Origin: an uncultured Verrucomicrobiae bacterium
Lineage (GTDB): Bacteria; Verrucomicrobiota; Verrucomicrobiia; Limisphaerales; Palsa-1400
DNA: 64,000 nucleotides
NCBI GenBank assembly: GCA_963702845.1
Contig: OY969763.1
Location: forward strand, 3,328,001-3,392,000
Reading direction: 5' to 3'
Numbering within the stretch: position 1 is the stretch's first letter; each line of letters starts with the position of its first letter. A program made the position numbers and the translations under genes. The notes below the pieces were generated by a model. The model searched no databases. It saw only the letters and a program-made list of their open reading frames with translations, and was not told the DNA's origin. Below, in pieces: positions 20,010 through 48,833 of the stretch.

Positions 20010-20087
20010 TGGTCGGGGCGGTGAGATTTGAACTCACGACCTCGTGGACCCGAACCACGCGCGCTAGCCAGGCTACGCTACGCCCCG
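20010..20087 (-). tRNA. tRNA-Pro(CGG)
   Basis: Reverse complement: CGGGGCGTAGCGTAGCCTGGCTAGCGCGCGTGGTT-CGG-GTCCACGAGGTCGTGAGTTCAAATCTCACCGCCCCGACCA. Confidence 0.95.
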
Positions 20088-29568: not shown

Positions 29569-30837
29569 TTAGAAATGGAAGCCGAGACTCGCAGACAACG
29601 CATGGCTGACAAACCGGTAAGTTCCATTGATCCCCGGCTCATCGGTGATCGTTCGGTCCGGCCCGTATGCAAATTGATACGTCACGTCCCAACTGATGCA
29701 CTTGTAGCTTTTGCCAAAACCAAGACTAAAAATGTGCCGGTCCGAATCCGGAACAACCGGATTGAAGTGCTCGTCCGGCGTCGAGTTCATGCTGTAGATA
29801 TAACCACCGCTAACGTGCCAATTGTTCTCCAGGTAGCGCGTCGCGCCAAATTCCAACATCCACGACGATTGCCAATCCAGCGCCAACGACTTTACACCAG
29901 TGAATTGTTTCACAAGCGCGAGGCTTTTCAACCGATGCCAATCCGTCCAATCGGCATCAAATTCGAAATTCCAATTCGTATTCGGCCGGTACGAATAACC
30001 AGCCACAATCGTCTGTGGAAACTTGAACGCAGTATGCGCGTCTTCACCTTGCACATTTAACGAGAACGGAACCACCAGCTTCGTATCTGAGTGCCCGGTC
30101 AGGTCAAATGTCGTTTCGCTGCGATACGTCACACCGAACGAATGCTCACAACAAGGTTGCCAGAGAGCGCCGATATTATAACCCCAGGCATCATCACGTC
30201 CGCGAAAACGCGCGTGATCCACCCCAAACGGTTGAAACACCAATTCCGATTCCGCATGGTTCCATGTCGGTCCCGCCGCGATCGATAACGTCTTGAACGG
30301 CTTGAACGCAATCACCGGGTTCACCGTGATATACATCAGTTGCCCTTTCTTAGGCACATTGAACGCCGACGCCGGATTGTTCAAAAATGGCGCATTATCC
30401 TGCCACTCCAGTCCAAGTCCGTATGGCGAATAAACACCCAAACCCAACGACAACGGAACATCCGTCGGCAGCTTCGCCGTCATATAAAACTGCGGCACCA
30501 CCTGCAGCTTCTGCTTCGTGTTCACCGAATCCGCGCCATTCTCGAAATGGTCGTTCATGTAAATCCCGTAAATTCCGCTGCGCGTATTAATTCCGTCCAA
30601 CTGGGTGATTCCGGCCGGATTGTAGTAAATAGCAGATGGATTATCTGCCGTAGCTACAAACGCATTACCACGTGCAGTGGCAAAAGCGTCCTGGTCAGGT
30701 AGCCGAAGGCCTAACGCAAAAATGTGCGCGGGCAAAAGCAGGGTTGAAATGGTTAATGCGAAACCAAAAGGTTTCGTCACCTTCAGGCGACTCGCAATTG
30801 TTTTCAAAATAAAAATTTTGTTGGTTGACAGCTGCAT
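29569..30837 (-). CDS. OmpP1/FadL/TodX outer-membrane hydrophobic-compound transporter
   Basis: ARGNAFVATADNPSAIYYNPAG signature, SPYGL, beta-barrel pattern, terminal Phe. Confidence 0.92.
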   Translation of the reverse strand: MQLSTNKIFILKTIASRLKVTKPFGFALTISTLLLPAHIFALGLRLPDQDAFATARGNAFVATADNPSAIYYNPAGITQLDGINTRSGIYGIYMNDHFENGADSVNTKQKLQVVPQFYMTAKLPTDVPLSLGLGVYSPYGLGLEWQDNAPFLNNPASAFNVPKKGQLMYITVNPVIAFKPFKTLSIAAGPTWNHAESELVFQPFGVDHARFRGRDDAWGYNIGALWQPCCEHSFGVTYRSETTFDLTGHSDTKLVVPFSLNVQGEDAHTAFKFPQTIVAGYSYRPNTNWNFEFDADWTDWHRLKSLALVKQFTGVKSLALDWQSSWMLEFGATRYLENNWHVSGGYIYSMNSTPDEHFNPVVPDSDRHIFSLGFGKSYKCISWDVTYQFAYGPDRTITDEPGINGTYRFVSHALSASLGFHF

Positions 30838-30853
30838 ACGAGCCACGGACAAG

Positions 30854-30869: not shown

Positions 30870-31182
30870 GTCTCAGAAGCGCGAAACACCGCTCGTTACT
30901 AACTGACTATGTGACACTTATAGAAGATTAGATACAGAGCCAGAGTTACCCGAAAGTTCGTAAAAATGGGCAATCCACCGTTTTTTTGACAGAAATCACC
31001 CTTTCGCCTCCACATTCGCGGCAGAAGTCGCGCGTGAAATCGTGAAGCTGCTTTTTCAGTTTCCAGAGCTTTTGCGTCCGAAACGCAGCCGCTTTATTTC
31101 CCGTGTTCTCATTCAAAGTTCAGCGTTCGACGTTCAAAGTTCATCTTTTCCCCTTCGCATCCTTCGCGCGAAACCTTCTCCC

Positions 31183-31226
31183 AAAAAACAAAAAGCTCCC
31201 GTCCAGTCTTGCGACTGAACAGGAGC
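31183..31226 (-). terminator. Intrinsic terminator
   Basis: Minus strand GCTCCTGTTCAGTC-GCAA-GACTGGACGGGAGC followed by TTTTTGTTTTTT. Confidence 0.85.
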
Positions 31227-32052
31227 AAATTGGGGGATGGGAGTGCGCCACTCTCTCTTTCCCGCACCGATGTTAGGCACCTTGCAAGCAAGGTCACCGG
31301 TTTCCCGACGCCATTCTCCACGGCAAGCGGAGTTTATTTCGGCCTCATAGCAGGGCCGTTGATCTCGGTTGCCCGGACCAAATTTGAGTGAGGCCTCTTG
31401 GCTCGCTTAGGCTGGCGTTTGCACCGCCGGCTTACGAACCAGGTCAAGACACGCTTGTGACTGCGGCTTCGCGTCTTAACCACTTTGCGCTGGGTCGGCC
31501 ACCGCTTTTGACAGTGCGTTGGCCCAGTGCTACGGGTCTGACCTCTTAACTCTCAGGTTGCTTTTCGCTCACAAGCCAGCGGTTCTTTTTTTAGAATCGC
31601 CGACGTTTCGGAAGGTTTCAAAGGCCTTGCCTTGGCCAGGTTGTCCTTCCCGGTTCGCTCGCTCACTTTGTCCCATCTTTCGATGTCTTTCGTTTGGCCG
31701 ATGCAAAAATTAATCTGCAACGCCAGAGTCGTTCGAACCGTGCTGATGCACAGTAGCAACCGATTACCCTCTGGGTAACTGCGATTCGCTCAAATCCGAA
31801 ACAGACTTGAACTACTGACTCGACTCGGAACGGTTTCTATTTCGTTCCTGATCGCTCAGTTCCTTTTTCGCGTTTACTGATGGCGCGCGAACGCCACCAG
31901 AGGAACTAGTGAATCCTGCCTCCGGTCTCCGCTCCTCACGGATCGGACTTAGAGGGACCAAGCGAACCAGCCTCGCTCGATCTTTCCCCGGTTGCCCGGG
32001 ATTATCCTTGGAACGCGTCTGACTTTCTTTCGTCCGTCTTTCGCATCCCAGC
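31183..32052 (-). ncRNA. Large (about 860 nt) structured non-coding RNA; MISL-motif candidate or new family
   Basis: No credible ORF. About 20 helices on the minus strand with GNRA, UUCG and CUUG loops and G-U pairs. Ends in the terminator. Confidence 0.75.
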
Positions 32053-32107
32053 TCTTTCAATGAACTGAAATGACTTTATCAGGAAACTCACAACTGACTA
32101 CTGAATC

Positions 32108-32250
32108 TTGCTCACAAGGTTATTCACCGTTTCCAAAAATTATTCACAACCAAAAACCTCAATAAAATCAATGTTTTCGCGGCTTTTTTGACGTTTTGTG
32201 TCAATTGCACAAACCGCATAATTCACAACTCGTGCCCTGACCGTGGATAA
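32108..32250. promoter_or_regulatory. Cluster of DnaA-box-like 9-mers
   Basis: TTATTCACA 32140-32148 (fits TTWTNCACA), TTATTCACC 32120, TAATTCACA 32219, TTATCCACG (minus strand, 32242-32250), TTGCTCACA 32108. Confidence 0.5.
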
Positions 32251-32522
32251 GTTTTACCCTGATGTTTGGTGGAATACTTACCTGATGAGTGCACGCGAAC
32301 TTCACTGTGAGTTTCCTCAGGGGAAACTCATTTAGCTCTATTTTGTGTTGGTGAATAGAAAGGCCTCACCTCACCCCGACACTCGGGTCAGACGAGCTGT
32401 GCCATGCCAACGTCCGAGGGTCCTGTGAAACCATATTGTGCCAAAACAGGGTGAAGACTGTTGTATTGACAGGGGTTTACCGGCGACATACCGTCAACAA
32501 AATACTGCATCGGGTTACTATT

Positions 32523-48746: not shown

Positions 48747-48833
48747 GCCGATGTGGCGGAATTGGCAGACGCGCCAGACTCAAAATCTGGTACTCGTGAG
48801 AGTGTGTGGGTTCGACCCCCTCCGTCGGCACCA
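48747..48833 (+). tRNA. tRNA-Leu(CAA)
   Basis: GCCGATGTGGCGGAATTGGCAGACGCGCCAGACT-CAA-AATCTGG, long variable arm, GGTTCGACCCC, CCA end. Confidence 0.95.

What the first reader, a model, noticed from the sequence alone, without database searches (positions are those of the whole stretch)
31183..32052. About 860-nt highly structured non-coding RNA with its own terminator
Seen: no credible ORF on either strand. Read on the minus strand, it folds almost end to end into helices: 5' UGGGAUGCG/CGCGUUCCA; CCCGG-GCAA-CCGGG (31987-32000); GAUCGAGCGAG/UUCGCUUGGUC; GCG-UUCG-CGC inside AGUUCCU/AGGAACU; a GAGUCG/CGACUC-closed multiloop; CAUC-GAAA-GAUG (31674-31685); GGAAGG/CCUUCC; GGUUAAGACGC/GUGUCUUGACC; GGCCUCA/UGAGGCC; CCUUG-CUUG-CAAGG (31280-31293). 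An 8-bp long-range match GCUUGUGA/UCACAAGC (31569-31576 vs 31453-31460) could be a pseudoknot or alternative fold. GNRA/UUCG/CUUG loops and G-U pairs make sense only on the minus strand, which ends in a stem plus U-tract terminator. Known: I saw no RNase P, tmRNA, rRNA or group II intron hallmarks. Large RNAs of unknown function exist (OLE, GOLLD, ROOL, and MISL, which I recall being reported from Verrucomicrobia). Inference: a stand-alone large ncRNA, either MISL-like or a new class.
Basis: partly seen in the sequence, partly recalled or inferred. Interest (0 to 1): 0.9.

Follow-up and report, generated by a model that had tools for sequence, protein, structure and literature searches.

The report
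Known MISL RNA gene, full length
The flagged stretch is a real gene for a large, intricately folded non-coding RNA, but it belongs to the already catalogued MISL family of Verrucomicrobiota, whose job is still unknown.

Summary
Window 31183-32052, minus strand, is a highly structured, ORF-free RNA gene with its own intrinsic terminator. It is not a new class. Rfam's MISL model (RF03079) matches 31240-32007 end to end at 573 bits, against a cut-off of 274.6. This scan has already found MISL in at least 20 other genomes.

Beyond the Rfam model I found:
- a conserved 5' hairpin and terminator;
- a second long-range helix, GGUUGC/GCAACC.

The gene is single-copy. It occurs in 44 of 61 related genomes, and its neighbours vary.

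Upstream of it:
- a leader word, GUUCAUUGAAAGA, resembles this lineage's rRNA boxA;
- the densest cluster of DnaA-box-like sites in the 6-Mb genome sits at fixed positions that are conserved across relatives.

Function remains unknown. My best reading is a stand-alone trans-acting structural RNA that is transcribed rRNA-style and possibly regulated by DnaA. Family-level novelty is nil, so interest is modest.

The parts
32120..32250 (.). Cluster of four DnaA-box-like 9-mers (TTATNCACA, at most 1 mismatch) upstream of the MISL promoter: 32120-32128, 32140-32148 (perfect), 32219-32227 and 32242-32250
   Evidence: 32140-32148 is the only perfect box in the 64-kb window; this is the only 140-nt window in the 6.03-Mb genome with 4 boxes; 7 windows have 3; boxes sit at fixed positions upstream of MISL in relatives, at 19/kb against 0.67/kb and 17.7/kb against 0.44/kb. 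DnaA binding is inferred, not shown.
32073..32081 (-). Predicted extended -10 promoter element (TGaTAAAGT). The transcription start is predicted near A32066.
   Evidence: TGnTAnnnT is conserved at this place in relatives; a TAnnnT hexamer ends 5-7 nt before the leader word in 62 of 106 loci, and 41 of those have TG. The start site is predicted, not mapped.
32053..32065 (-). Leader word GUUCAUUGAAAGA, a candidate boxA-like (rRNA antitermination-type) element at the 5' end of the transcript
   Evidence: AGTTCATTGAAAGA is invariant in 28 relatives. GTTC[ACT]TTGA is present in 106 of 109 loci; all 6 rRNA operons examined carry TC[AT]TTGA[AC]A once in the 16S leader and once in the 16S-23S spacer; a 9-mer is shared with this genome's own 16S leader. 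Function is inferred.
32009..32050 (-). 5' hairpin lying outside the Rfam model, with the conserved loop ACGAAAGAAAG
   Evidence: a hairpin forms in 29 of 29 relatives with an intact 5' end. helices 1-2: 8 of 9 and 3 of 3 pairs change on both sides.
31240..32007 (-). MISL RNA core as modelled by Rfam RF03079
   Evidence: 573.3 bits, model positions 1-751 of 751; 161 of 171 mapped pairs are canonical; 90.3% of cells are paired, against 35-43% when the partners are slid, and 102 of 207 pairs change on both sides, against 53 +/- 3.6 in shuffles.
31569..31574 (-). Pseudoknot 1, 5' strand (UUGUGA), pairing with 31455-31460
   Evidence: helix 17; 102 to 106 of 106 sequences are paired at each of the 6 positions, with several Watson-Crick pair types at three of them.
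31455..31460 (-). Pseudoknot 1, 3' strand (UCACAA), in the loop of the GGUUAAGACGC/GUGUCUUGACC hairpin
31756..31761 (-). Long-range helix 2, 5' strand (GGUUGC), pairing with 31556-31561
   Evidence: 630 of 636 cells are paired in 106 sequences, all six pairs occur as more than one Watson-Crick type, and slid controls give 19-49%; 100% of 180 cells are paired in A2, and 0 of 500 shuffles reach the observed score.
31556..31561 (-). Long-range helix 2, 3' strand (GCAACC)
31185..31226 (-). Intrinsic terminator: a 14-bp stem, a GCAA loop and a U-tract
   Evidence: helix 31: 12 pairs, 9 of which change on both sides, and 98.6% of cells are paired across 30 relatives.

Best explanation
This is the single-copy gene for MISL RNA (Rfam RF03079), a large structured non-coding RNA of Verrucomicrobiota. 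The transcript is about 880 nt.

Shown:
- It is a full-length family member.
- It folds into the family's multi-domain structure.
- It carries a 5' hairpin that the Rfam model omits, two covariation-supported long-range helices and an intrinsic terminator.

Inferred:
- It is its own transcription unit, starting near 32066 from an extended -10 promoter and ending near 31186.
- Its first 13-14 nucleotides carry a boxA-like word of the kind this lineage uses in its rRNA leader and spacer. I put the odds at about 0.55 that this recruits NusB/NusE-type antitermination, which would let a long untranslated RNA escape Rho and fold as it is made.
- The conserved DnaA-box-like sites just upstream put the promoter under DnaA control (odds about 0.5 to 0.6).
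- The mature RNA acts in trans as a structural scaffold, a ribonucleoprotein core or a catalyst. It is not a cis-regulator and not a base-pairing small RNA.

Its cellular function is not known.
For: - **Identity.** The match scores 573.3 bits against a cut-off of 274.6 and covers the full model.
- **Structure.** 161 of 171 Rfam pairs are canonical. Across 30 relatives, 90.3% of pair cells are paired, against 35-43% when the partners are slid. 102 of 207 pairs change on both sides, against 53.1 +/- 3.6 in shuffles, and 0 of 500 shuffles reach that.
- **Extensions.** The 5' hairpin is present in 29 of 29 relatives. The terminator is found and supported (helix 31).
- **Long-range helices.** Pseudoknot 1 is supported and helix 2.
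- **Stand-alone gene.** There is one full copy per genome in 41 of 61 relatives above the cut-off. Flanking genes differ between loci: FadL-type porin, Ig-domain protein, PALP enzyme, integrase, ThrRS, M23 peptidase and others. No ORF is conserved.
- **Leader word.** It is invariant in 28 relatives and present in 106 of 109 loci. It matches the boxA words of all 6 rRNA operons examined, including the A at position 6 seen in this family's 16S leader.
- **DnaA boxes.**
- **Transcripts in nature.** RNA-library contigs from 4 soil or rhizosphere metatranscriptome runs, belonging to 4 studies, match the MISL interval at 90-100% identity.
- **Not a stand-in for another RNA.** RNase P RNA and tmRNA are present elsewhere in the genome.
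Against: - No transcript ends were mapped. The runs laid are assembled contigs from mixed communities, so they cannot give strand, ends or level, and they do not show that this organism's copy is expressed.
- The boxA reading rests on sequence likeness alone. The word has A (or C in Opitutales-type copies) at position 6. Passages of PMC3177189 report that a U6G transversion in lambda boxA is not tolerated.
- The outer bases of the word, GUUC...GA(A/G)C, could instead form a small 5' hairpin.
- The loose boxA pattern occurs 84 times in this genome against about 18 expected, so it is not specific to rRNA.
- DnaA binding is untested, and another factor could read these sites.
- In G000 the third conserved box position is degenerate, with 2 mismatches, as read from the sequence.
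- 17 of 61 related genomes gave no match. Some of these are more than 95% complete, so the RNA is not universal even within the order.
- Nothing found here points to a specific function.
Confidence: 0.85

Rival explanations
1. The DnaA-box cluster is mainly a DNA element of replication control, such as a DnaA-titrating or DnaA-recharging site of the datA/DARS kind. The MISL gene merely lies beside it, or MISL transcription through the region modulates it. It is not a plain promoter operator for MISL.
For: It is the densest DnaA-box cluster in the whole genome. No cluster of 3 or more boxes lies at dnaA or at the skew-inferred origin. dnaA lies 44 kb away in G000 and 155 kb away in the one other single-contig relative.
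Against: The boxes keep a fixed distance and orientation relative to the MISL start (-96, -76 and -64) whatever the upstream gene is. That is what a promoter-bound regulator looks like. In 3 of 5 relatives dnaA and MISL lie on different contigs. The locus is not at the GC-skew origin, which is near 4.75 Mb, or at the terminus, near 2.2 Mb.
Confidence: 0.12
2. The conserved leader word is not a boxA. It is a short 5'-terminal hairpin (GUUC...GAAC) or an initial-transcribed promoter element that stabilises the RNA or sets promoter strength.
For: The outer four bases are complementary in most copies: GUUC/GAAC, or GUUC/GAGC in this window. Position 6 departs from the U or C of the E. coli and Aquifex boxA words. 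The word sits at the very start of the predicted transcript, which is unusual for boxA.
Against: The loop bases are as conserved as the stem. That points to sequence-specific recognition. The same 9-mer, UCAUUGAAA, occurs in this genome's own 16S leader at the place where all 6 rRNA operons examined carry their boxA word.
Confidence: 0.35
3. The region is a long cis-acting leader (a riboswitch or attenuator) of the downstream FadL-type outer-membrane transporter gene at 29569-30852 on the minus strand.
For: The gene is on the same strand and lies about 330 nt downstream.
Against: A strong, conserved intrinsic terminator ends the RNA. The downstream genes differ among 38 loci, and a FadL-type gene follows only in this genome. 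Rfam types the family as 'Gene; sRNA'.
Confidence: 0.02
4. The region encodes one or more small proteins, and the apparent structure is incidental.
For: Mechanical ORFs of 45-82 aa exist on both strands.
Against: ORF position and length are not conserved in 38 homologs. Neither of the two small ORFs scanned, the 82-aa one inside the RNA and a 56-aa one just downstream, hit any Pfam family. 102 base pairs show compensatory changes, which coding constraint does not produce.
Confidence: 0.01

Closest known systems
MISL RNA (Rfam RF03079). From recall, it is one of the motifs of Weinberg et al. 2017, NAR 45:10811 (PMC5737381). The main text does not contain the word and the supplement could not be read.
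   Same: Sequence and consensus secondary structure match over the whole model. The homologs lie in contigs titled Verrucomicrobiota. It is a stand-alone gene of unknown function.
   Different: Nothing at family level. This copy, like its relatives, extends beyond the Rfam model by a 5' hairpin, a leader word and a terminator. Two long-range helices are not visible in the structure line that cmscan prints. Whether Rfam or the original figure annotates them as pseudoknots could not be checked.
Other large orphan bacterial RNAs: OLE, GOLLD, ROOL and raiA. I saw abstracts or listings of 10.1101/2024.12.08.627333, PMC12968392 and PMC5737381, and passages of PMC5737381.
   Same: It is large, ornate and conserved, has many invariant unpaired nucleotides and has no known function.
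   Different: There is no sequence or structure match: no Rfam hit at E <= 1 other than MISL. GOLLD and ROOL are often in prophages or near tRNAs (PMC5737381, passages). MISL here is a single-copy chromosomal gene. A tRNA follows it in 4 of the 20 loci scanned.
rRNA operon leaders with boxA and Nus-factor antitermination (PMC3177189, passages; abstracts of PMC10250234 and PMC4807359)
   Same: A boxA-like word lies close to the promoter of a long untranslated structured RNA. It matches this lineage's own rRNA boxA words, and a hairpin follows it directly.
   Different: The word sits at the very 5' end. Its order, word then hairpin, is that of lambda nut rather than rrn (from my knowledge of those systems). 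No boxC was identified, and binding is untested.
DnaA-regulated promoters, such as dnaA and nrdAB in E. coli (from established knowledge, not checked in papers here)
   Same: Several 9-mers fit TTATNCACA. They are clustered just upstream of or over the -35 region, at conserved spacing and in one orientation.
   Different: The target is a non-coding RNA gene. I know of no described DnaA-regulated large ncRNA. A full-text search for MISL together with DnaA gave one irrelevant paper.

Membership tests
MISL RNA (RF03079) | Covariance-model score above Rfam's gathering cut-off over the full model | tested here: met
   573.3 bits against 274.6, model positions 1-751 of 751, not truncated
MISL RNA (RF03079) | The consensus secondary structure can form and is maintained by compensatory change | tested here: met
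   161 of 171 mapped pairs are canonical. 102 of 207 pairs change on both sides, and 0 of 500 shuffles reach that.
MISL RNA (RF03079) | Occurs in Verrucomicrobiota | tested here: met
   Of 80 listed contigs holding the MISL core pattern, all but 4 are titled Verrucomicrobiota or one of its lineages; those 4 MAGs carry other labels. The family is present in 44 of 61 relatives of this genome and in 9 of 151 genomes of a phylum-wide sample.
MISL RNA (RF03079) | Independent gene (Rfam type 'Gene; sRNA'), not tied to one neighbouring gene | tested here: met
   It has its own terminator and a conserved promoter region. The flanking genes vary.
GOLLD, ROOL, OLE, RNase P, tmRNA, group I/II introns | Match to the family's covariance model | tested here: not met
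   No family other than MISL reaches E <= 1 in 30900-32400. RNase P RNA and tmRNA lie elsewhere in the genome.
boxA (Nus-factor antitermination signal) | Sequence matches the organism's own rRNA leader or spacer boxA, with G2 and C5 conserved | tested here: met
   GUUCAUUGAAAGA compares with GCUCAUUGAAAAU in the 16S leader and GUUCUUUGACAAC in the spacer. The role of G2, C5 and position 6 comes from passages of PMC3177189.
boxA (Nus-factor antitermination signal) | Bound by NusB-NusE and confers resistance to Rho termination | not testable with these tools
   Needs a binding assay and a reporter.
DnaA box | 9-mer fitting TTATNCACA, clustered and conserved | tested here: met
DnaA box | Bound by DnaA, with an effect on transcription | not testable with these tools
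   Needs ChIP or EMSA and promoter mutants.

The most novel reading that the evidence does not exclude
MISL is a growth- or cell-cycle-coupled housekeeping RNA. Its promoter carries the strongest DnaA-box cluster in the genome, and its leader recruits the rRNA antitermination machinery. Either DnaA status sets the level of a large orphan RNA, or the locus titrates DnaA. Either way a large structured RNA would be tied to replication control in Verrucomicrobiota.
Probability: 0.2. Interest if true: 0.7.

Novelty: already known. Interest (0 to 1): 0.3.

Why it matters
As a find, it does not matter much. The RNA family has been in Rfam for years, and this scan has met it in many genomes.

What has some value is the set of handles it gives on an orphan large RNA:
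- corrected ends, giving a transcript of about 880 nt rather than the 751-position model;
- two testable long-range helices for structural work;
- a conserved promoter architecture (DnaA-type boxes plus a boxA-like leader) that suggests when and how the RNA is made.

Together these give concrete experiments for a family whose function nobody knows.

Tried and rejected
- **Supplement of Weinberg 2017.** It should describe MISL, but it could not be read. What that paper says of MISL is therefore recalled, not seen.
- **Shared 10-mer CAAGGATAAT.** It occurs in both MISL and this genome's rRNA leader. I rejected it as chance, because it is absent from the rRNA leaders of 5 relatives.
- **Upstream similarity in all six frames.** 15 of 30 loci share it, which suggested a second RNA. 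Rfam found none. It is a divergent protein gene with an M23 peptidase domain and a weak SecDF-head-like match, and it is not present beside this window's copy.
- **All-against-all covariation scan of 106 homologs.** The split between two large clades swamped it: 294 apparent pairs fell outside the known structure, and the stack filter was too loose because of G-U pairs. Only GGUUGC/GCAACC survived a closer look. GUUGCU/GGCGAU and GCUGGU/GUCAGU consist mostly of wobble pairs, and I dropped them.
- **Metatranscriptome contigs.** They cover only 31212-32043 and none of the flanks. These are contigs of runs chosen for holding this stretch, so the empty flanks are not evidence for the transcript's ends.
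- **Linkage to dnaA.** The distances are 44 kb here and 155 kb in one relative, and dnaA is on a different contig in three others. That is too few cases to call.
My count was misregistered by one base and I did not repeat it.

Full report
**What is there.** On the minus strand, window 31240-32007 matches Rfam's MISL RNA model (RF03079) at 573.3 bits. The family cut-off is 274.6, E = 1.8e-173, and model positions 1 to 751 of 751 are covered without truncation. A permissive scan of 30900-32400 found no other family at E <= 1.

**Checking the observation.**
- The 870-nt interval folds at -360.7 kcal/mol on the minus strand. Twenty dinucleotide shuffles give -300.1 +/- 8.7 (z = -6.96). The plus strand gives z = -4.24.
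- A terminator-like site with a 14-bp stem (31226..31195), a 4-nt loop and the tail TTTTTGTTTT closes the RNA.
- I mapped the Rfam consensus structure from the cmscan alignment onto the sequence. It gives 171 pairs, 161 of them canonical.
- No ORF is conserved. In 38 homologs the longest sense ORF varies from 52 to 140 aa and starts anywhere from position 6 to 705.

**Relatives and covariation.**
- The model finds one full-length copy in 44 of 61 related genomes, including this one. In 41 the match is above the cut-off.
- It finds a copy in 9 of 151 genomes drawn across the phylum.
- It never found more than one full-length copy in a genome.
Of all pair cells, 90.3% are paired, against 35-43% when the partners are slid.
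- In that count 102 of 207 pairs change on both sides. Shuffles give 53.1 +/- 3.6, and 0 of 500 reach the observed value.

**Beyond the Rfam model.**
- nhmmer with the 870-nt interval aligns end to end in most same-family relatives.
- *5' hairpin.* The hairpin at 32050-32009 lies upstream of model position 1. It forms in 29 of 29 relatives with an intact 5' end and covaries heavily (helices 1-2).
- *Terminator.* It is 98.6% paired across relatives, and 9 of its 12 pairs change on both sides (helix 31).
In 106 distinct homologs each position is paired in 102 to 106 sequences. Pair types include UA 31 / CG 67 / AU 5, UA 35 / UG 27 / CG 42 and GC 57 / AU 44. One further reader pair, 31575/31454, is not supported: 10 of 106 paired. 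The eighth, 31576/31453, was not counted, because C31453 already pairs within the Rfam hairpin stem.
- *Helix 2.* A second long-range helix, GGUUGC (31761-31756) with GCAACC (31561-31556), is paired in 630 of 636 cells, and all six pairs occur as more than one Watson-Crick type. Slid controls give 19-49%. In A2 it is 100% paired, and 0 of 500 shuffles reach the score.
In the broad set it is only partly kept.
- I could not check whether Rfam or the original figure already marks either long-range helix as a pseudoknot.

**Context.**
- Downstream on the same strand, after about 330 nt, lies a FadL/TodX-type outer-membrane transporter gene. Upstream and divergent lies an Ig-domain protein gene.
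- Across 38 loci the neighbours differ: a PALP enzyme, a tyrosine recombinase after a tRNA, ThrRS, a sigma factor and others. An M23-peptidase gene lies divergently upstream in about 15 loci, but not here.
- This pattern fits an independent, trans-acting gene. It does not fit a leader of any one operon.
- RNase P RNA and tmRNA are present elsewhere in the genome, so MISL does not stand in for either.

**Promoter and leader.** Notes from earlier agents of this scan mentioned an rRNA-style leader and DnaA-type sites in other genomes. I tested both here.

*Leader word.*
- Aligning the 120 nt upstream in 28 relatives shows an invariant AGTTCATTGAAAGA directly 5' of the hairpin. A TGnTAnnnT element precedes it.
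- GTTC[ACT]TTGA is present in 106 of 109 loci. A TAnnnT hexamer ends 5-7 nt before it in 62 of 106 loci, and 41 of those have TG.
- This predicts a transcription start at about 32066 and an RNA of about 880 nt.
- All six rRNA operons examined (this genome and five relatives) carry TC[AT]TTGA[AC]A once in the 16S leader and once in the 16S-23S spacer, where boxA is expected. This family's leader version, GCUCAUUGAAAAU, shares UCAUUGAAA with MISL.
- Opitutales-type MISL copies carry GUUCCUUGAUAGAAC instead.
- Passages of PMC3177189 name G2, C5 and position 6 as critical in boxA. G2 and C5 are kept. Position 6 is A or C.
- The word could also be a small GUUC/GAAC hairpin.
- The loose pattern occurs 84 times in the genome against about 18 expected.
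- I put the boxA reading at roughly 0.55.

*DnaA boxes.*
- Four 9-mers fitting TTATNCACA with at most one mismatch lie in 32120-32250. One of them is the only perfect match in the window.
- Genome-wide this is the only 140-nt window with four such boxes. Seven windows have three.
- In 37 relatives' loci the -160..-40 window holds 85 boxes (19/kb), against 88 in the rest (0.67/kb). They sit at fixed positions (-96, -76, -64) in one orientation.
- In 64 usable loci out of 80 fetched from named genome records, the figures are 17.7/kb against 0.44/kb, and 60 of 64 loci have at least one box.
- The locus is not at the skew-inferred origin (about 4.75 Mb) or terminus (about 2.2 Mb).
- dnaA lies 44 kb away here and 155 kb away in one relative. 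In three other relatives it is on a different contig.

**Expression.** Twenty RNA-library runs from 17 studies of soil or rhizosphere communities hold parts of the stretch. I laid four of them, from four studies. Their contigs match the MISL interval at 90-100% identity. This shows that MISL-family RNAs are present in metatranscriptomes. It does not show the ends, the strand or the level of this copy.

**Verdict.** This is a true, full-length MISL RNA gene. The family is already known, and its function is still unknown. My most likely mechanism is a stand-alone structural RNA that is made rRNA-style and possibly under DnaA control, and that acts in trans, probably with proteins.

**Literature.** Full-text searches found no paper on MISL function. 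The only uses seen were Rfam-derived: a chemical-mapping example in the Ribonanza preprint (passages) and one genome report that cites the accession (listing).

Noticed in passing
L002:1496-1630 (+), which is G000:C1 about 3154350-3154484, outside the window and 205 kb from the MISL gene: A 135-nt copy, about 90% identical, of the 3' end of MISL (model positions 674-750 plus the terminator hairpin and T-tract). It sits 6 nt after the stop of a PAS-domain histidine kinase gene and is convergent with the MISL gene. It could be a borrowed terminator module or a remnant of a rearrangement. One relative (G049) also has a partial match to positions 605-750.
   Followed up: partly
G000 genome-wide, for example C1:184473, 742602, 2666935, 3772502 and 4520048: The boxA-like pattern G[CT]TC[AT]TTGA[AC]A occurs 84 times, against about 18 expected. 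Many hits are in stretches without long ORFs. Some form recurring longer words such as CCCCGGTTCGTTCTTTGAAAACCGCAC. This may be a widely used leader element or a repeat family.
   Followed up: no
L004, L008, L020 and L026 (one genus of relatives): A tRNA gene follows the MISL terminator by about 100 nt on the same strand, and a tyrosine recombinase gene lies next to it. This looks like an integration hotspot beside MISL.
   Followed up: no
G000:C1:3403852-3404334, about 12 kb beyond the window's right end: The only dnaA gene lies 44 kb from MISL. It is about 1.35 Mb from the origin that cumulative GC skew suggests, near 4.75 Mb.
   Followed up: partly
window 20013-20087 (-) and 48747-48830 (+): Two tRNA genes found by the Rfam scan.
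   Followed up: no
Genome-contig loci L064, L079, L088 and L123: Four MISL-bearing MAG contigs are titled Bifidobacteriaceae, Dongiaceae, Saccharimonadales and Bifidobacterium. These are probably binning or labelling errors rather than MISL outside Verrucomicrobiota.
   Followed up: no
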